From the NCBI RefSeq assembly GCF_003018255.1, contig NZ_CP027440.1: DNA of 64,000 nt; one strand, written 5' to 3'. The translations under genes and the position numbers were made by a program. The notes under the pieces were generated by a model that saw only the letters and a program-made list of their open reading frames with translations, had not been told where the DNA came from and ran no database searches. The stretch's first letter is position 1; the number at the start of each line of letters is the position of its first letter. Of this stretch, positions 7,414-12,412 are shown in pieces. The DNA comes from Escherichia coli. GTDB taxonomy: Bacteria > Pseudomonadota > Gammaproteobacteria > Enterobacterales > Enterobacteriaceae.

Positions 7414-8145
7414 ATGAGCGAAATGATTTACGGCATCCATGCAGTGCAGGCCCTGCTGGAGCGCGCCCCTGAACGTTTTCAGGAAGTCTTTATTTTAAAA
7501 GGCCGTGAAGATAAACGTCTGTTACCGCTGATTCACGCCCTTGAGTCTCAGGGCGTGGTTATCCAGTTGGCAAACCGCCAATATCTCGACGAGAAAAGCG
7601 ACGGTGCCGTGCATCAGGGCATTATCGCTCGTGTGAAGCCAGGACGGCAGTATCAGGAAAACGATCTGCCGGATCTGATCGCTTCGCTCGATCAACCGTT
7701 CCTGCTGATCCTCGACGGCGTAACCGATCCGCACAACCTCGGCGCGTGCCTGCGTAGCGCGGACGCCGCTGGTGTTCATGCGGTGATTGTGCCGAAAGAT
7801 CGCTCCGCACAGCTCAACGCCACGGCGAAAAAAGTGGCCTGTGGTGCGGCAGAAAGCGTTCCGCTGATTCGGGTGACTAATCTGGCGCGCACCATGCGTA
7901 TGTTGCAGGAAGAGAATATCTGGATCGTCGGTACGGCAGGCGAGGCGGATCATACACTCTATCAGAGCAAAATGACCGGACGCCTGGCGCTGGTGATGGG
8001 CGCGGAAGGTGAAGGTATGCGTCGCCTGACCCGTGAACATTGCGATGAGTTGATCAGCATCCCAATGGCAGGAAGTGTTTCTTCCCTGAACGTTTCGGTT
8101 GCAACCGGAATTTGCTTATTTGAAGCGGTTCGTCAGCGCAGCTAG
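7414..8145 (+). CDS. rlmB: 23S rRNA (Gm2251) 2'-O-methyltransferase RlmB
   Basis: 243 aa SpoU/TrmH-family [25 protein letters not shown] downstream of rnr. Confidence 0.93.
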
Positions 8146-8160
8146 TTCCTCTGAATTATG

Positions 8161-8192
8161 AAAAGCCATCCAGATTTGGATGGTTTTTTTTT
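8161..8192 (+). terminator. Rho-independent terminator after rlmB
   Basis: aaaagccatccagatttggatgg hairpin followed by a T9 run. Confidence 0.75.
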
Positions 8193-8271
8193 GTCTATAG
8201 CTGGTAAGATAATTACGTACTGCAAATATTCATTTTATTAATATTTAAACTTAATTTATATGGAATAATAT

Positions 8272-8673
8272 ATGACATGGAATCCGTTGGCGCTGGCGAC
8301 GGCGCTGCAAACTGTACCTGAACAAAATATTGATGTAACAAATAGCGAGAACGCATTAATTATTAAAATGAATGATTATGGCGATTTGCAAATCAATATT
8401 CTATTTACTTCCCGCCAAATGATTATCGAAACCTTTATTTGTCCGGTAAGTAGTATCAGCAATCCAGATGAATTTAATACCTTCTTATTAAGAAATCAGA
8501 AGATGATGCCGTTGTCATCGGTAGGGATCTCCAGCGTGCAACATGAAGAGTATTACATTGTTTTCGGTGCGTTATCGCTTAAATCTTCTCTTGAAGATAT
8601 CCTGCTTGAGATAACCTCGCTGGTAGATAACGCATTGGATCTGGCTGAAATTACAGAAGAATATTCACACTAA
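8272..8673 (+). CDS. yjfI: DUF2170 protein YjfI
   Basis: 133 aa ORF, first gene of the yjfIJKLMC cluster. Confidence 0.85.
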   Translation: MTWNPLALATALQTVPEQNIDVTNSENALIIKMNDYGDLQINILFTSRQMIIETFICPVSSISNPDEFNTFLLRNQKMMPLSSVGISSVQHEEYYIVFGALSLKSSLEDILLEITSLVDNALDLAEITEEYSH

Positions 8674-8691
8674 TTACAAGGACGGGTATTT

Positions 8692-9390
8692 ATGGGAATT
8701 TTAAAAAGTTTATTTACGCTGGGGAAATCGTTTATCTCCCAGGCGGAAGAATCCATTGAAGAAACCCAGGGCGTGCGCATGCTGGAACAGCATATTCGTG
8801 ACGCTAAAGCTGAACTCGATAAAGCCGGAAAATCTCGCGTTGATCTGCTGGCGCGGGTGAAATTAAGTCACGATAAGCTGAAAGATTTACGTGAGCGCAA
8901 AGCCAGTCTGGAAGCTCGTGCGCTGGAAGCGTTAAGCAAGAACGTTAATCCGTCGTTGATTAACGAAGTTGCTGAAGAAATCGCGCGCCTTGAGAATCTC
9001 ATTACCGCTGAAGAGCAAGTGTTGTCGAATCTGGAAGTCTCTCGTGATGGCGTGGAAAAAGCAGTTACAGCGACAGCGCAGCGTATCGCTCAGTTTGAGC
9101 AGCAAATGGAAGTCGTTAAAGCTACTGAAGCCATGCAGCGTGCACAACAGGCTGTAACGACCTCTACTGTTGGCGCATCTTCCAGCGTTTCGACAGCGGC
9201 AGAATCCTTAAAACGCCTGCAAACGCGTCAGGCCGAACGTCAGGCTCGCCTGGATGCTGCCGCACAGTTGGAAAAAGTCGCAGACGGTCGCGATCTTGAT
9301 GAAAAGCTGGCGGAAGCCGGAATTGGCGGTAGCAATAAAAGTAGCGCCCAGGATGTATTAGCAAGACTGCAACGCCAACAGGGCGAGTAA
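8692..9390 (+). CDS. yjfJ: PspA/IM30-family protein YjfJ
   Basis: 232 aa, heptad-rich coiled-coil sequence (MGILKSLFTLGKSFISQAEESIEETQ...) typical of PspA/Vipp1 family. Confidence 0.88.
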   Translation: MGILKSLFTLGKSFISQAEESIEETQGVRMLEQHIRDAKAELDKAGKSRVDLLARVKLSHDKLKDLRERKASLEARALEALSKNVNPSLINEVAEEIARLENLITAEEQVLSNLEVSRDGVEKAVTATAQRIAQFEQQMEVVKATEAMQRAQQAVTTSTVGASSSVSTAAESLKRLQTRQAERQARLDAAAQLEKVADGRDLDEKLAEAGIGGSNKSSAQDVLARLQRQQGE

Positions 9391-9439
9391 TTTTTTGCCA
9401 GCCTCACTGCAAGGCTGGCAACTATTTTAAGGATAAAAT

Positions 9440-10099
9440 ATGTCTGGTTTTTTCCAGCGTCTGTTTGGCAAGGATAATAAGCCTGCTATCGCTCGCGGTC
9501 CTCTGGGACTTCATCTCAATAGTGGCTTTACGCTCGACACGTTAGCGTTTCGTTTGCTGGAAGATGAATTGCTGATTGCGCTGCCGGGTGAGGAATTTAC
9601 GGTAGCCGCTGTCAGCCGCATCGATCTGGGCGGCGGTAGCCAGATTTTCCGCTACTACACTTCAGGCGATGAGTTTCTGCAAATCAATACCACTGGCGGC
9701 GAAGATATTGATGACATTGATGATATCAAGCTCTTTGTCTATGAAGAGAGCTACGGTATCAGTAAAGAGAGTCACTGGCGCGAGGCGATCAATGCCAAAG
9801 CGATGGGGGCAATGACCTTAAACTGGCAGGAAAAACGCTGGCAGCGATTTTTTAATAGCGAAGAACCGGGAAATATCGAACCCGTCTACATGCTGGAAAA
9901 AGTAGAAAATCAAAACCATGCTAAATGGGAGGTCCATAATTTTACCATGGGCTATCAACGGCAAGTGACCGAAGATACTTACGAATATCTGCTGTTAAAT
10001 GGTGAGGAATCTTTTAATGATCTCGGCGAGCCGGAGTGGTTATTTTCGCGCGCGCTGGGGGTCGATATCCCGCTGACATCACTTCATATTATTGGTTAA
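9440..10099 (+). CDS. yjfK: DUF2491 protein YjfK
   Basis: 219 aa ORF in conserved position. Confidence 0.85.
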   Translation: MSGFFQRLFGKDNKPAIARGPLGLHLNSGFTLDTLAFRLLEDELLIALPGEEFTVAAVSRIDLGGGSQIFRYYTSGDEFLQINTTGGEDIDDIDDIKLFVYEESYGISKESHWREAINAKAMGAMTLNWQEKRWQRFFNSEEPGNIEPVYMLEKVENQNHAKWEVHNFTMGYQRQVTEDTYEYLLLNGEESFNDLGEPEWLFSRALGVDIPLTSLHIIG

Positions 10100-10116
10100 T
10101 TACAAGGACGTTTACG

Positions 10117-10515
10117 ATGCATATACTGGATTCACTTCTTGCCTTTAGCGCTTATTTTTTTATTGGTGTGGCTATGGTGATTATTTTTCTGTTTATCTAC
10201 TCCAAAATTACACCGCACAACGAATGGCAGTTAATCAAAAATAATAACACCGCGGCGGCACTGGCGTTCAGCGGAACATTGTTGGGGTACGTGATCCCCT
10301 TATCCAGTGCGGCAATCAATGCGGTGAGTATTCCAGACTATTTCGCATGGGGCGGGATTGCTCTGGTGATTCAATTACTCGTTTTTGCTGGCGTCAGGCT
10401 TTATATGCCCGCATTAAGCGAAAAAATTATTAATCACAATACCGCAGCAGGAATGTTTATGGGAACCGCCGCGCTGGCTGGCGGTATTTTTAACGCAGCT
10501 TGTATGACATGGTAA
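10117..10515 (+). CDS. yjfL: DUF350 inner-membrane protein YjfL
   Basis: ORF track 10036..10515; start moved to ATG 10117 (MHILDSLLAF) preceded by aaggacg RBS; hydrophobic. Confidence 0.8.
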   Translation: MHILDSLLAFSAYFFIGVAMVIIFLFIYSKITPHNEWQLIKNNNTAAALAFSGTLLGYVIPLSSAAINAVSIPDYFAWGGIALVIQLLVFAGVRLYMPALSEKIINHNTAAGMFMGTAALAGGIFNAACMTW

Positions 10516-10524
10516 TGGACGATC

Positions 10525-11163
10525 ATGGCCAGAAAACGCAAATCCAGAAATAACAAAAATATCGGATATGGGGCAATCAGTCGCATTGGTAGACCGCATA
10601 ATCCTTTTGAGCCGCGCCGCAATCGCTACGCACAAAAATACTTAACGTTGGCGCTAATGGGCGGTGCCGCTTTTTTCGTATTGAAAGGTTGTGGCGATAG
10701 TGGCGATGTCGATAACGACGGCGACGGAACGTTTTACGCGACTGTGCAGGATTGTATTGATGACGGTAATAATGCAGACATTTGCGCGCGTGGCTGGAAC
10801 AACGCCAAAGCGGCGTTTTATGCCGATGTTCCGAAGAATATGACTCAGCAGAATTGTCAGTCTAAGTACGAAAATTGCTACTACGACAATGTTGAACAGA
10901 GTTGGATCCCGGTCGTTTCTGGATTTTTGTTAAGCCGGGTTATTCGTAAAGATCGCGATGAGCCGTTCGTCTATAACAGCGGCGGATCCTCATTTGCTTC
11001 GCGCCCCGTCTGGCGCAACACTTCTGGTGATTACTCCTGGCGCTCCGGTTCTGGCAAAAAAGAGTCTTACTCTTCGGGCGGCTTTACCACCAAAAAAGCG
11101 TCAACCGTTTCTCGCGGCGGCTATGGTCGTTCTTCCAGCGCCCGTGGGCATTGGGGAGGCTAA
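10525..11163 (+). CDS. yjfM: DUF1190 protein YjfM
   Basis: 212 aa ORF with N-terminal basic/TM segment; conserved position. Confidence 0.85.
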   Translation: MARKRKSRNNKNIGYGAISRIGRPHNPFEPRRNRYAQKYLTLALMGGAAFFVLKGCGDSGDVDNDGDGTFYATVQDCIDDGNNADICARGWNNAKAAFYADVPKNMTQQNCQSKYENCYYDNVEQSWIPVVSGFLLSRVIRKDRDEPFVYNSGGSSFASRPVWRNTSGDYSWRSGSGKKESYSSGGFTTKKASTVSRGGYGRSSSARGHWGG

Positions 11164-11165
11164 TC

Positions 11166-12329
11166 ATGCTGAGACACAACGTTCCTGTGCGGCGGGATCT
11201 GGACCAGATCGCCGCTGACAACGGTTTCGACTTTCATATCATCGACAATGAAATCTATTGGGACGAGAGTCGAGCTTACCGTTTTACTCTGCGCCAGATT
11301 GAAGAGCAGATCGAAAAACCGACTGCGGAACTGCATCAGATGTGCCTTGAGGTGGTGGATCGCGCGGTTAAAGACGAAGAGATCCTGACGCAACTGGCGA
11401 TCCCGCCGTTGTACTGGGATGTGATCGCCGAAAGCTGGCGCGCACGCGATCCTTCGTTGTATGGCCGTATGGATTTTGCCTGGTGTGGTAATGCACCGGT
11501 TAAGTTGCTGGAGTACAACGCCGATACGCCAACTTCATTGTACGAGTCGGCTTATTTCCAGTGGTTGTGGCTGGAAGATGCCCGGCGCAGCGGCGTTATT
11601 CCGCGCGATGCCGATCAGTACAATGCCATTCAGGAGCGCCTGATTTCACGCTTTAGCGAGCTTTACAGTCGGGAACCGTTTTATTTTTGCTGCTGTCAGG
11701 ACACCGACGAAGACAGGAGTACCGTGCTGTACTTGCAGGACTGCGCCGAGCAGGCAGGGCAGGAGTCGCGGTTTATCTACATTGAAGATCTCGGTTTGGG
11801 CGTCGGCGGTGTGCTGACCGATCTTGATGATAATGTCATCCAGCGTGCATTTAAGCTGTATCCGCTGGAGTGGATGATGCGTGACGATAACGGTCCGCTG
11901 CTGCGCAAGCGTCGCGAGCAATGGGTGGAGCCGTTATGGAAAAGTATCTTGAGTAATAAAGGGCTAATGCCGCTGCTTTGGCGCTTCTTCCCTGGTCATC
12001 CTAACCTTCTTGCATCCTGGTTCGATGGTGAAAAACCGCAGATTGCCGCTGGCGAAAGCTATGTGCGTAAACCGATTTACTCGCGCGAAGGCGGAAACGT
12101 CACCATTTTCGACGGTCAGAATAACGTTGTTGACCACGCTGATGGTGATTACGCCGATGAACCGATGATCTACCAGGCGTTTCAACCTCTGCCGCGATTT
12201 GGCGATAGCTACACACTCATCGGTAGCTGGATTGTCGATGATGAAGCGTGCGGAATGGGGATCCGTGAAGATAACACGTTGATCACCAAAGACACCTCAC
12301 GTTTCGTTCCGCATTACATTGCTGGATAA
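11166..12329 (+). CDS. yjfC: Glutathionylspermidine synthase-like ATP-grasp protein YjfC
   Basis: ORF track 11151..12329; start at ATG 11166 (MLRHNVPVRRDLDQIAADNGF) gives 387 aa. Confidence 0.85.
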   Translation: MLRHNVPVRRDLDQIAADNGFDFHIIDNEIYWDESRAYRFTLRQIEEQIEKPTAELHQMCLEVVDRAVKDEEILTQLAIPPLYWDVIAESWRARDPSLYGRMDFAWCGNAPVKLLEYNADTPTSLYESAYFQWLWLEDARRSGVIPRDADQYNAIQERLISRFSELYSREPFYFCCCQDTDEDRSTVLYLQDCAEQAGQESRFIYIEDLGLGVGGVLTDLDDNVIQRAFKLYPLEWMMRDDNGPLLRKRREQWVEPLWKSILSNKGLMPLLWRFFPGHPNLLASWFDGEKPQIAAGESYVRKPIYSREGGNVTIFDGQNNVVDHADGDYADEPMIYQAFQPLPRFGDSYTLIGSWIVDDEACGMGIREDNTLITKDTSRFVPHYIAG

Positions 12330-12412
12330 GAATGTTTTAGCAATCTCTTTCTGTCATGAATCCATGGCAGTGACCATACTAATGGTGACTGCCATTGATG
12401 GAGGGAGACACA

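What the first reader, a model, noticed from the sequence alone, without database searches (positions are those of the whole stretch)
8272..12329. yjfIJKLMC: a PspA/IM30-paralogue operon with an ATP-grasp enzyme, conserved but functionally obscure
Six co-directional genes with short gaps encode three DUF proteins, a PspA/Vipp1-like coiled-coil protein (YjfJ), a DUF350 membrane protein and a glutathionylspermidine-synthase-like ATP-grasp enzyme (YjfC). The combination of a membrane-stress-type scaffold with a putative peptide or amide ligase suggests an envelope-stress or modification system whose biochemistry is, to my knowledge, unresolved.
Basis: partly seen in the sequence, partly recalled or inferred. 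Interest (0 to 1): 0.45.

Follow-up and report, generated by a model that had tools for sequence, protein, structure and literature searches.

The report
E. coli yjfIJKLMC membrane-stress/polyamine-ligase cluster
This is the known, near-universal E. coli yjfIJKLMC gene cluster, whose physiological role is still open; comparing many genomes suggests that its spermidine-attaching enzyme YjfC modifies the conserved glycine-glycine tail of YjfM, the protein encoded just upstream.

Summary
Window 8272-12329 holds six co-directional genes: yjfI (DUF2170), yjfJ (PspA/IM30), yjfK (DUF2491), yjfL (DUF350), yjfM (DUF1190) and yjfC (GSP_synth ATP-grasp). The gaps are 2-49 nt, and the stretch matches 5425 of 5426 complete E. 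coli genomes.

"Biochemistry unresolved" is only partly right. YjfC has crystal structures (7UK6/7UK7). K-12 RefSeq names it "peptide--spermidine ligase". This operon type was catalogued by Ravi et al. 2024. A 2025 review still calls the physiological substrate unknown.

New here:
- In 80 proteobacterial loci found with the ligase, 70 have a DUF1190 gene ending -3 to +139 nt (median 5) before the ligase start.
- 76 of 79 of these proteins end in -GG, after a conserved RGG(F/Y)G motif. Among 114 diverse family representatives, 91 end in -GG.
- Some jumbo phages carry the same gene pair.
- GspS-type enzymes amidate a C-terminal glycine carboxylate. I therefore propose that YjfC adds spermidine to the C-terminus of YjfM, and YgiC to that of YgiB (probability about 0.4).
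- The main obstacle is that the tail may be periplasmic.

Most E. coli, this window included, lack a K+ channel gene that related operons carry between yjfJ and yjfK. The feature is already known; interest is moderate.

The parts
8160..8189 (+). Intrinsic terminator of rlmB (13-bp stem followed by a run of nine T). It separates the cluster from the upstream genes.
   Evidence: Terminator scan. RNA fold -16.3 kcal/mol, z -4.8. Sequence read.
8190..8271 (+). AT-rich (80% A+T) intergenic region that must hold the yjfI promoter. Only weak sigma-70-like matches were found, and no sigma-54 -24/-12 element.
   Evidence: GC falls to 0.37-0.38 across 8000-8750. PMC12492005 reports an activating 1-nt deletion 80 bp upstream of yjfI.
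8272..8673 (+). yjfI: DUF2170 protein of 133 aa with a CesT/Tir-like chaperone fold, the presumed partner of YjfJ.
   Evidence: Pfam PF09938 E 2.4e-44. PDB 8Q8O (BacA) E 1.3e-16. Placed in the CesT/Tir superfamily by Ravi 2024.
8692..9390 (+). yjfJ: PspA/IM30 (ESCRT-III-like) coiled-coil protein of 232 aa with an amphipathic N-terminal segment.
   Evidence: Pfam PF04012 E 5.3e-58 over the whole profile. Residues 2-19 have hydrophobic moment 0.45.
9395..9421 (+). Perfect 10-bp hairpin with a 7-nt loop in the 49-nt yjfJ-yjfK spacer. A K+ channel gene occupies this position in related operons and in 19 of 5426 E. coli genomes. It may act as a partial terminator or RNA stabiliser.
   Evidence: RNA fold -17.1 kcal/mol, z -4.0. 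Channel gene in L008 and other loci.
9440..10099 (+). yjfK: DUF2491 protein of 219 aa. No signal peptide or hydrophobic segment is visible in its sequence. It is mostly beta-strand and has no close solved structural relative.
10117..10515 (+). yjfL: DUF350 inner-membrane protein of 132 aa with four hydrophobic segments.
   Evidence: Pfam PF03994 E 5e-34. Hydropathy peaks. Found beside DUF1190 in every yjf-type locus.
10525..11163 (+). yjfM: DUF1190 protein of 212 aa. It has a basic N-terminus, a membrane anchor (residues 39-55), an acidic cysteine-containing domain, a short hydrophobic segment (126-140) and a basic disordered tail.
   Evidence: Pfam PF06693 E 2e-17. Hydropathy and charge analysis. 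Family alignment A1.
11110..11160 (+). Codons for the YjfM tail SRGGYGRSSSARGHWGG-COOH, the proposed recognition motif and acceptor C-terminus for YjfC.
   Evidence: Every intact enterobacterial homologue ends in -GG (36 of 36). 91 of 114 diverse representatives end in -GG. 76 of 79 ligase-linked copies end in -GG. In the AF2 fusion, tail residues 421-440 reach pLDDT about 70.
11166..12329 (+). yjfC: ATP-grasp acid-amine ligase of 387 aa, a homologue of the GspS synthetase domain without the amidase domain. It is annotated as a peptide--spermidine ligase.
   Evidence: Pfam PF03738 E 5.9e-149. PDB 7UK6 E 2e-274. K-12 RefSeq product name.
12360..12399 (+). 18-nt inverted repeat (89% complementary) between yjfC and aidB, with no T-run after it. 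It marks the downstream edge of the cluster; its function was not determined.
   Evidence: RNA fold -23.5 kcal/mol, z -4.8.

Best explanation
IDENTITY (shown). This is the core-genome E. coli cluster yjfI-yjfJ-yjfK-yjfL-yjfM-yjfC. It is a K+-channel-less version of a conserved proteobacterial system built from two modules:
- YjfI (CesT-like chaperone) with YjfJ (PspA/ESCRT-III membrane-remodelling protein).
- YjfL (4-TM DUF350), YjfM (envelope-anchored DUF1190) and YjfC (ATP-grasp peptide-spermidine ligase).
YjfK is a beta-rich protein, probably cytosolic, with no close solved structural relative.

MECHANISM (inferred). YjfC recognises the conserved T-x-S-R-G-G-(F/Y)-G motif in the disordered tail of YjfM. 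It activates the free carboxylate of the terminal glycine (...WGG-COOH) with ATP as an acyl phosphate and joins it to spermidine. GspS does the same chemistry on the glycine of glutathione. YgiC would treat YgiB (...SMGG-COOH) the same way. The product is an envelope protein whose C-terminal negative charge is replaced by a flexible polycation. If the tail is periplasmic, the modification would have to happen before export.

The YjfI-YjfJ module would act on the same membrane under stress. This link rests only on gene neighbourhood.
For: Gene identities.

Enzyme:
- YjfC is identical to PDB 7UK6, 'putative acid--amine ligase YjfC'.
- RefSeq names it a peptide--spermidine ligase.
- A 2025 review says the physiological substrate is unknown.

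Coupling between ligase and DUF1190:
- Of 80 genome loci retrieved with a ligase alignment, 70 have a DUF1190 gene on the same strand ending -3 to +139 nt (median 5) before the ligase start.
- Five more (L015, L026, L031, L038, L042) carry the gene elsewhere in the locus.
- Three Bradyrhizobium-type loci have a divergent upstream ORF that lacks most of the domain but keeps ...RGGFG...GGG-COOH.
- One locus is too short upstream to judge, and only one (L033) has nothing.
- The pair persists when all other partners change: after tolC in 31 loci, in full yjf operons in 21, with yjfL but not yjfI/yjfJ in 18, with no detected partner in 10. It also occurs in jumbo phages.

The tail:
- 76 of 79 ligase-linked DUF1190 proteins end in -GG and 3 in -GS.
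- 91 of 114 representatives from clusters at 50% identity or less end in -GG.
- Longer tails end again in WGG.
- Of 61 ORFs of at least 150 aa in the window, only YjfM ends in GG.
- The motif and terminus are conserved while the linker before them varies freely.

Structure prediction: in an AF2 model of YjfC + 30-residue GS linker + YjfM tail, built with a paired alignment, the linker has pLDDT 29-37. Tail residues 421-440 (GFTTKKASTVSRGGYGRSSS) have pLDDT 73 and 68 and form a strand at TVSR.

Established knowledge: GspS and trypanothione synthetase amidate the glycine carboxylate of glutathione. Other ATP-grasp enzymes act on protein C-termini (RimK on S6, LysX on LysW, tubulin tyrosine ligase).
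Against: - Topology. The cysteine-containing domain and the lipoprotein or signal-anchor N-terminus place the body of DUF1190 outside the cytoplasm. The second hydrophobic segment is short (about 15 residues, containing Pro, Gly and often Arg). Bradyrhizobium-type variants have none. The tail is therefore probably periplasmic, out of reach of an ATP-dependent cytoplasmic enzyme unless it is modified before export.
- In the AF2 fusion the last seven residues (ARGHWGG) have pLDDT below 50, so the terminus itself is not placed.
- Gene adjacency and tail conservation are also compatible with docking or regulation rather than modification.
- The loci are related by descent, so the counts are not independent events.
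- I could not read Pederick 2023, so I do not know which peptides were accepted or whether this idea was already tested.
- Some E. coli carry frameshifted yjfM alleles that destroy the tail, so the system is dispensable in those strains.
Confidence: 0.4

Rival explanations
1. YjfC conjugates spermidine to a free small peptide or metabolite in the cytoplasm, not to YjfM. The DUF1190 tail only docks or regulates the ligase at the membrane, or binds its product. The PspA module responds to polyamine status. This is essentially the reading of Ravi et al. 2024.
For: - The reported activity is on peptides, with the physiological substrate unknown.
- Ravi et al. propose that the PspA system monitors polyamine concentration or modification.
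- The AF2 fusion orders the RGGYG motif but not the terminal GG.
- YgiC was recovered in an inner-membrane-association proteome.
- A periplasmic tail would be out of the enzyme's reach.
Against: - It does not explain why the free -GG-COOH end is kept across the family and re-created after tail extensions.
- It does not explain why even minimal variants that have lost the cysteine domain keep the tail next to the ligase.
- Docking would also need the tail in the cytoplasm, so it faces the same topology problem.
Confidence: 0.3
2. DUF1190 is an amine-carrier protein in the manner of LysW with LysX. A polyamine is attached temporarily to the C-terminal glycine, then elaborated, moved or delivered, and finally released.
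For: - The tight coupling of an ATP-grasp ligase to a protein with a conserved C-terminal tail resembles LysX/LysW (established knowledge).
- Related operon variants carry AdoMet decarboxylase, a polyamine oxidase or spermidine-synthase-like genes.
Against: - The E. coli cluster and the tolC-ygiBC unit contain no aminopropyltransferase, hydrolase or release enzyme.
- The carrier would be membrane-anchored and probably extracytoplasmic.
Confidence: 0.1
3. YjfC is a glutathionylspermidine synthetase, and the cluster is a thiol-redox or polyamine-storage system like GspSA.
For: Pfam GSP_synth match. Many genome records carry the label 'glutathionylspermidine synthase family protein'.
Against: - Reviews citing Sui 2012 state that the paralogue YgiC lacks this activity.
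- NCBIfam's bifunctional GspSA model scores 162.6 bits against a cut-off of 882, and only the C-terminal part matches.
- There is no amidase domain.
Confidence: 0.03
4. The cluster is an anti-phage defence or other accessory island acquired horizontally, as the low GC of yjfI might suggest.
For: GC is 0.37-0.38 at 8000-8750 against 0.50-0.58 in the flanks. One relative (L005) lies beside type IV CRISPR-associated csf genes.
Against: - There are no PADLOC matches other than coiled-coil noise.
- The cluster sits at one chromosomal site in 5425 of 5426 E. coli genomes.
- Phages themselves carry the DUF1190-ligase pair.
Confidence: 0.02

Closest known systems
The 'third group' of CesT/Tir-PspA operons with polyamine genes (Ravi et al. 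2024, mSystems, PMC11237479)
   Same: Same families in the same order: DUF2170 (CesT-like), a PspA homologue, DUF2491, 4-TM DUF350, DUF1190 and a GspS-like ATP-grasp ligase.
   Different: The K+ channel gene described for that group is missing here and in all but 19 of 5426 E. coli genomes. That paper calls DUF1190 a metal-chelating lipoprotein and does not link its C-terminus to the ligase.
E. coli tolC-ygiB-ygiC (the paralogous DUF1190 + ligase pair)
   Same: YgiB is a DUF1190 protein ending ...RSMGG. YgiC is about 51% identical to YjfC, starts 5 nt after ygiB, and is named peptide--spermidine ligase.
   Different: There is no PspA, DUF2170, DUF2491 or DUF350 partner. It is linked to tolC in 31 of 80 loci. 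The tail residue at position -3 is usually Met rather than Trp. YgiB has a canonical lipobox (LAGC), YjfM an atypical one (LKGC).
Glutathionylspermidine synthetase/amidase GspSA and trypanothione synthetase
   Same: Homologous ATP-grasp synthetase domain (PDB 2IO7 E 1.6e-32, 2VOB E 9.8e-38). The chemistry is ATP-dependent amidation of a C-terminal glycine carboxylate with spermidine (established knowledge).
   Different: No N-terminal CHAP amidase domain. Reported not to make glutathionylspermidine. The proposed acyl substrate is a protein tail rather than glutathione.
The classical phage-shock system pspF-pspABCDE
   Same: YjfJ is a full-length member of the PspA/IM30 family.
   Different: No PspF, PspB or PspC neighbours and no sigma-54 promoter. 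The partner is a CesT-like protein. phmmer finds no PDB PspA or Vipp1 chain at E below 0.01, so YjfJ is a divergent branch.
ATP-grasp enzymes that act on protein C-termini (RimK/S6, LysX/LysW, tubulin tyrosine ligase) and the GG C-termini of ubiquitin-like proteins
   Same: An ATP-dependent ligase paired with a protein whose conserved, flexible C-terminal tail is the acyl donor. The analogy comes from established knowledge.
   Different: Those enzymes add amino acids or attach to lysines. Here the amine would be a polyamine, and the target is an envelope protein. No homology to ubiquitin-like proteins or E1 enzymes is implied.
The P. aeruginosa bacABCDEF (BAC) system
   Same: BacA is a homologue of YjfI (8Q8O) and BacB is a PspA-family protein. 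The authors suggest an atypical Psp system.
   Different: The BAC paper reports biofilm, rhamnolipid and swarming phenotypes. No ATP-grasp ligase is described in that operon.

Membership tests
PspA/IM30 (ESCRT-III superfamily): YjfJ | Full-length match to the family profile above its curated threshold | tested here: met
   PF04012 E 5.3e-58, 196.7 bits against a cut-off of 33.9; residues 2-232 cover profile positions 1-220.
PspA/IM30 (ESCRT-III superfamily): YjfJ | N-terminal amphipathic membrane-binding helix | tested here: inconclusive
   Residues 2-19 (GILKSLFTLGKSFISQAE) have hydrophobic moment 0.45 and mean hydrophobicity 0.26. This is compatible but not diagnostic.
PspA/IM30 (ESCRT-III superfamily): YjfJ | Assembly into rings or rods and remodelling of membranes | not testable with these tools
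   Only homology models are published (PMC12492005).
Classical Psp regulon (pspF-pspABCDE) | Sigma-54 promoter, PspF activator and PspB/PspC partners | tested here: not met
   No -24/-12 element in 8100-8290. The neighbours are rlmB and aidB.
GspS-type ATP-grasp acid-amine ligases: YjfC | GSP_synth pre-ATP-grasp/ATP-grasp domain | tested here: met
   PF03738 E 5.9e-149. Identical to PDB 7UK6 (E 2e-274).
Bifunctional glutathionylspermidine synthetase/amidase (GspSA) | N-terminal amidase domain and an equivalog-level match | tested here: not met
   The protein has 387 aa and aligns only to the synthetase part, within residues 253-613 of the 619-residue GspSA. NCBIfam PRK10507 scores 162.6 bits against a cut-off of 882.
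Bifunctional glutathionylspermidine synthetase/amidase (GspSA) | Makes glutathionylspermidine | not testable with these tools
   Literature citing Sui 2012 says the paralogue YgiC does not have this activity. The primary paper, which also covers YjfC, is not held.
Peptide-spermidine ligases (YgiC/YjfC) | ATP-dependent ligation of spermidine to a peptide | not testable with these tools
   The sequence is YjfC itself. The activity is taken from the K-12 RefSeq product name and from papers citing Pederick 2023.
CesT/Tir-PspA polyamine operon, group 3 (Ravi 2024) | DUF2170-PspA dyad with GspS-like ATP-grasp, DUF350, DUF1190 and DUF2491 | tested here: met
   All six families are present in that order. 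The same order occurs in 21 of 80 related loci.
CesT/Tir-PspA polyamine operon, group 3 (Ravi 2024) | K+ channel with an intracellular ligand-sensing domain | tested here: not met
   Absent from the window, which has a 49-nt spacer with a hairpin instead. Present in 19 of 5426 E. coli genomes and in 17 of the 80 related genome loci.
DUF1190: YjfM | Profile match, four conserved cysteines, the hydrophobic 'P-x-M-A-G-F-M'-type segment and the RGG(F/Y)G...GG C-terminus | tested here: met
   PF06693 E 2e-17. Alignment A1 shows 4 invariant Cys plus invariant P94, G98 and G174. The tail is SRGGYGRSSSARGHWGG.
DUF1190: YjfM | Lipoprotein signal peptide (lipobox) | tested here: inconclusive
   YjfM has VLKGC, with an atypical Lys at -2, after a 38-residue basic N-terminus. 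Some close relatives lack the Cys. Most of the family and YgiB (LAGC) have a standard lipobox.
Known anti-phage defence systems (PADLOC) | Match to any defence protein model | tested here: not met
   Only two weak coiled-coil matches for YjfJ (E 5e-4 and 2e-3). Nothing for the other five proteins.

The most novel reading that the evidence does not exclude
YjfC and YgiC are protein C-terminal glycine-polyamine ligases. Each marks the invariant (W/F/M)GG-COOH end of the DUF1190 envelope protein encoded immediately upstream, probably before that protein is exported. This would be a new bacterial post-translational modification: a GG terminus, as in ubiquitin, but capped with spermidine. It would be widespread in Proteobacteria and borrowed by jumbo phages. 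The resulting tethered polycation or free primary amine could bind anionic envelope components. More speculatively, it could be cross-linked to the cell wall as the C-terminal lysine of Lpp is, or gate the K+ channel encoded in the ancestral operon.
Probability: 0.35. Interest if true: 0.75.

Novelty: already known. Interest (0 to 1): 0.45.

Why it matters
yjfIJKLMC and its paralogue ygiBC are among the conserved E. coli genes still without a physiological role. ygiBC sits in the tolC operon, and loss of ygiBC together with yjfMC is reported to worsen the growth defect of tolC mutants (as cited). The enzymes have structures and an in-vitro activity, but the natural substrate is unknown.

If the substrate is the tail of the neighbouring DUF1190 protein, three things follow:
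- The question can be settled by one mass-spectrometry experiment and one peptide assay.
- A new kind of protein modification (polyamine capping of a C-terminus) is defined.
- Polyamine chemistry is tied directly to envelope-stress machinery of the PspA/ESCRT-III type and to efflux biology.

If the hypothesis fails, the locus remains an ordinary, already catalogued conserved operon of unknown function.

Tried and rejected
I seeded with the ligase instead.
- Sequence searches of the PDB found nothing for YjfJ at E below 0.01. They found nothing meaningful for YjfK, either as a single sequence or as a profile.
- A relaxed Pfam scan linked none of the DUF families to other families.
- PADLOC gave no defence assignment.
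- No sigma-54 promoter lies upstream of yjfI, unlike pspA or the reported bacA promoter.
- Apparent DUF1190-ligase fusion proteins in E. coli (548-601 aa) turned out to be frameshifts inside the yjfM tail, not natural fusions.
- A two-TM topology that would put the YjfM tail in the cytoplasm fits the charge distribution. I did not adopt it, because the second hydrophobic segment is short and is missing from some variants.
- The primary papers were not in the library: Pederick 2023, Sui 2012, Dhamdhere & Zgurskaya 2010 and Li 2019.
- Searches for any published link between the DUF1190 tail and the ligase found none. The library is incomplete.

Full report
**1. Observation**

- yjfI 8272-8673
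- yjfJ 8692-9390
- yjfK 9440-10099
- yjfL 10117-10515 (RefSeq start)
- yjfM 10525-11163
- yjfC 11166-12329

The gaps are 18, 49, 17, 9 and 2 nt. Each product matches a single Pfam family far above threshold: DUF2170, PspA_IM30, DUF2491, DUF350, DUF1190 and GSP_synth.

The 4.3-kb stretch matches 5425 of 5426 complete E. coli genomes. In 5326 of them the match covers at least 80% of the stretch, and two strains are 100% identical. RefSeq annotates the same genes between rnr-rlmB and aidB. In detail: this is a core-genome locus of E. coli.

**2. Local anatomy**

- A strong intrinsic terminator follows rlmB (8160-8189; -16.3 kcal/mol, z -4.8).
- The 82-nt region before yjfI is 80% A+T. It has only weak sigma-70-like matches and no sigma-54 element.
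- GC falls to 0.37-0.38 over yjfI, against 0.50-0.58 in the flanks.
- A perfect 10-bp hairpin (9395-9421; -17.1 kcal/mol, z -4.0) lies in the yjfJ-yjfK spacer.
- An 18-nt inverted repeat (12360-12399) lies between yjfC and aidB, with no T-run after it.

Whether all six genes form one transcription unit is open. A large expression compendium groups only yjfIJKL, which was silent except in heat-evolved strains carrying a 1-nt deletion 80 bp upstream of yjfI (PMC12492005). Another paper speaks of a yjfIJ operon (PMC10948618). Position -80 falls in the T-run of the rlmB terminator; that is my inference.

**3. What is already known**

YjfC:
- It is identical to PDB 7UK6/7UK7, and its paralogue YgiC to 7UK8/7UKA.
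- K-12 RefSeq names both "peptide--spermidine ligase".
- A 2025 TolC review states that YgiC lacks glutathionylspermidine synthetase activity, has peptide-spermidine ligase activity, and that "the physiological substrate remains unknown" (PMC11762307; see also PMC12506659).

The operon type:
- Ravi et al. 2024 described it as one of three classes built around a CesT/Tir-like + PspA dyad. [quoted passage not shown]
- They proposed that the PspA system monitors polyamines or polyamine-type modifications (PMC11237479).

Other components and phenotypes:
- BacA of P. aeruginosa, a YjfI homologue, has a crystal structure (8Q8O) and is reported to bind its PspA-like partner.
- Loss of ygiBC together with yjfMC is cited as worsening the growth defects of tolC mutants.

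"Biochemistry unresolved" is outdated for the enzyme. I could not read the primary papers: Pederick 2023, Sui 2012, Dhamdhere 2010 and Li 2019.

**4. New evidence: the DUF1190 tail and the ligase**

YjfM ends ...SRGGYGRSSSARGHWGG. Every intact enterobacterial homologue ends the same way; the exceptions are frameshifted. YgiB ends ...TRGGFGESV...RSMGG.

An exhaustive HMMER search of 1.84 billion cluster representatives found 155 relatives at E of 0.001 or better. Of the 114 listed that are at least 160 aa long, 91 end in -GG and 13 in -GS. The family alignment shows, in order:
- a lipoprotein or signal-anchor N-terminus;
- four invariant cysteines;
- a short conserved hydrophobic segment (W-F-x-P-x-M-A-G-F-M);
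- a freely variable linker;
- the most conserved part, S-R-G-G-F-G ... (W/F/M)-G-G at the very end.

Extended tails end again in WGG. In the window, YjfM is the only one of 61 ORFs of at least 150 aa that ends in GG.

I then fetched 80 loci from the one-genome-per-species collection with a ligase alignment and annotated them with HMMs:
- In 70 loci a DUF1190 gene ends -3 to +139 nt (median 5) before the ligase start, on the same strand.
- In L015 and L026 one small gene is inserted between the two.
- In L031, L038 and L042 the DUF1190 gene lies elsewhere in the locus.
- In three Bradyrhizobium-type loci the upstream ORF has lost most of the domain but still ends ...RGGFG...GGG.
- One locus is too short upstream to judge, and one has nothing.
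- Of 79 ligase-linked DUF1190 proteins (these loci plus L004-L007), 76 end in -GG.

The pair stays together while everything else changes:

| Context | Loci |
|---|---|
| After tolC | 31 |
| Full yjf-type operon with the channel gene | 12 |
| Full yjf-type operon without the channel gene | 9 |
| With yjfL but not yjfI/yjfJ (some also with the channel or yjfK) | 18 |
| No detected partner | 10 |

The residue before GG tracks the context: Met in 24 of 31 ygi-type loci, Trp in 20 of 31 yjf-type loci.

Jumbo phages carry the pair as well:
- Ralstonia phage RSL1 ORF051 is a small lipoprotein ending ...ARGGFGATAAGHASAGG, directly upstream of its gsp gene.
- Ochrobactrum phage OC encodes a DUF1190 protein, a SprT-like peptidase and the ligase in a row.
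- A phage-like contig (L007) has the pair among dozens of small ORFs.

**5. Mechanism proposed**

GspS and trypanothione synthetase activate the glycine carboxylate of glutathione and amidate it with spermidine (established knowledge). YjfC is their homologue and is reported to join spermidine to peptides.

The simplest reading of section 4 is that the natural "peptide" is the C-terminus of the neighbouring DUF1190 protein. The RGG(F/Y)G motif would serve for recognition and the free Gly-Gly carboxylate as the acceptor site.

I tested this with an AF2 model of YjfC, a 30-residue Gly-Ser linker and the last 30 residues of YjfM, using a 23-row paired alignment:
- the ligase is confident;
- the linker is not (pLDDT 29-37);
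- tail residues 421-440 (GFTTKKASTVSRGGYGRSSS) reach 73 and 68 and form a short strand at TVSR;
- the final seven residues are below 50.

This fits docking of the motif but does not place the terminus. There was no control, and I could not inspect the coordinates.

Shown:
- gene identities;
- coupling between ligase and DUF1190;
- conservation of the tail.

Taken from the literature:
- the ligase activity.

Inferred:
- that the tail is the substrate;
- the link to the YjfI-YjfJ module.

**6. The main difficulty**

The cysteine-containing domain and the N-terminal anchor place DUF1190 outside the cytoplasm. YgiB is listed in a vesicle proteome among envelope proteins.

The charge pattern of YjfM would fit a two-TM hairpin with a cytoplasmic tail: a basic N-terminus, an acidic middle and a basic tail. 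However, the second hydrophobic segment is only about 15 residues long and contains Pro, Gly and often Arg. Some variants lack it altogether.

If the tail is periplasmic, a cytoplasmic ATP-dependent enzyme could act only before export. Cytoplasmic glycosylation of some Sec-exported adhesins before export is a precedent from general knowledge. This difficulty is why I put the hypothesis at about 0.4.

**7. Other components**

- **YjfL.** It has four hydrophobic segments and accompanies DUF1190 in every yjf-type locus but in no ygi-type locus.
- **YjfJ.** It is a full-length PspA-family protein with an amphipathic N-terminal segment, but it is not part of a classical Psp regulon.
- **Defence.** No PADLOC defence model matches any of the six proteins.

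**8. Loss of the channel gene**

In 12 of the 21 full operons from other Proteobacteria, a K+ channel gene lies between yjfJ and yjfK. The same gene is present at that position in only 19 of 5426 complete E. coli genomes.

The window has the majority form. The yjfJ stop is followed by a 49-nt spacer with the hairpin, and alignment with a channel-bearing E. coli shows that the flanks match. The common E. coli operon is therefore a reduced version of the wider system.

**9. Verdict**

The feature is real, ordinary in the sense of being a known and annotated core operon, and already catalogued as a class.

The value added here is a specific, cheap-to-test hypothesis for the unknown substrate of YjfC and YgiC, and hence for what the ligase half of the cluster does. 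Novelty of the feature: already known. Interest: 0.45. The most novel surviving reading, polyamine capping of a protein C-terminus, has a probability of about 0.35.

Noticed in passing
window 9391-9439; L008:3070-4140: A potassium-channel gene (Ion_trans_2 with a Castor/RCK-like domain) lies between yjfJ and yjfK in many related operons and in 19 of 5426 complete E. coli genomes. The window has a 49-nt spacer with a perfect 10-bp hairpin at that place, which looks like an old deletion.
   Followed up: partly
L088:2095-3622 (Ralstonia phage RSL1 ORF051-ORF052); L089:1481-3661 (Ochrobactrum phage OC p242-p240); L007:6962-8759: Jumbo phages and a phage-like contig carry the DUF1190 + GspS-like ligase pair, and the RGGFG...GG tail is preserved. 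In phage OC a SprT-like metallopeptidase gene sits between the two, and the tail ends in -AG. In all, 141 phage records encode a homologue of the ligase.
   Followed up: partly
window 8000-8750: GC content drops to 0.37-0.38 over the yjfI promoter and gene, against 0.50-0.58 in the flanks. This would fit silencing of an AT-rich promoter and the reported lack of expression under laboratory conditions. Not tested.
   Followed up: no
window 8184-8192: The published activating mutation (a 1-nt deletion 80 bp upstream of yjfI, PMC12492005) maps by my count into the run of nine T in the rlmB terminator. It may therefore change read-through or promoter spacing. The exact base is not given in the text I read.
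   Followed up: no
window 12360-12399: An 18-nt inverted repeat (89% complementary; RNA fold -23.5 kcal/mol, z -4.8) lies between yjfC and aidB with no T-run after it. It could be a protein-binding palindrome of the aidB promoter or an RNA 3' end stabiliser.
   Followed up: partly
yjfM tail region, window about 11050-11163 (proteins P0255-P0259, P0301, P0306): Some E. coli genomes have frameshifts inside the tail-coding part of yjfM. These fuse it to the reading frame upstream of yjfC, giving apparent DUF1190-ligase fusions of 548-601 aa. One such cluster has 130 member sequences. The tail is destroyed, so the system is dispensable in those strains.
   Followed up: partly
L005:1-2649: In one metagenomic relative, the full seven-gene operon lies next to type IV CRISPR-associated genes (Csf1, Csf3, Cas6/Csf5), which suggests a plasmid or mobile context.
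   Followed up: no
L071:8215-8973; L076:3492-4235; L083:8399-8995: Bradyrhizobium-type loci replace DUF1190 with short Ser/Gly-rich membrane proteins that keep only the anchor, two cysteines and the RGGFG...GGG end. L071 has two such ORFs in tandem before the ligase. These minimal versions show which parts are indispensable.
   Followed up: partly
L015:8610-8981; L026:8599-8997: In two Alteromonadales-type loci a small unrelated gene is inserted between the DUF1190 gene and the ligase: a four-helix-bundle-like protein in L015 and a small protein with a signal-peptide-like N-terminus in L026.
   Followed up: no
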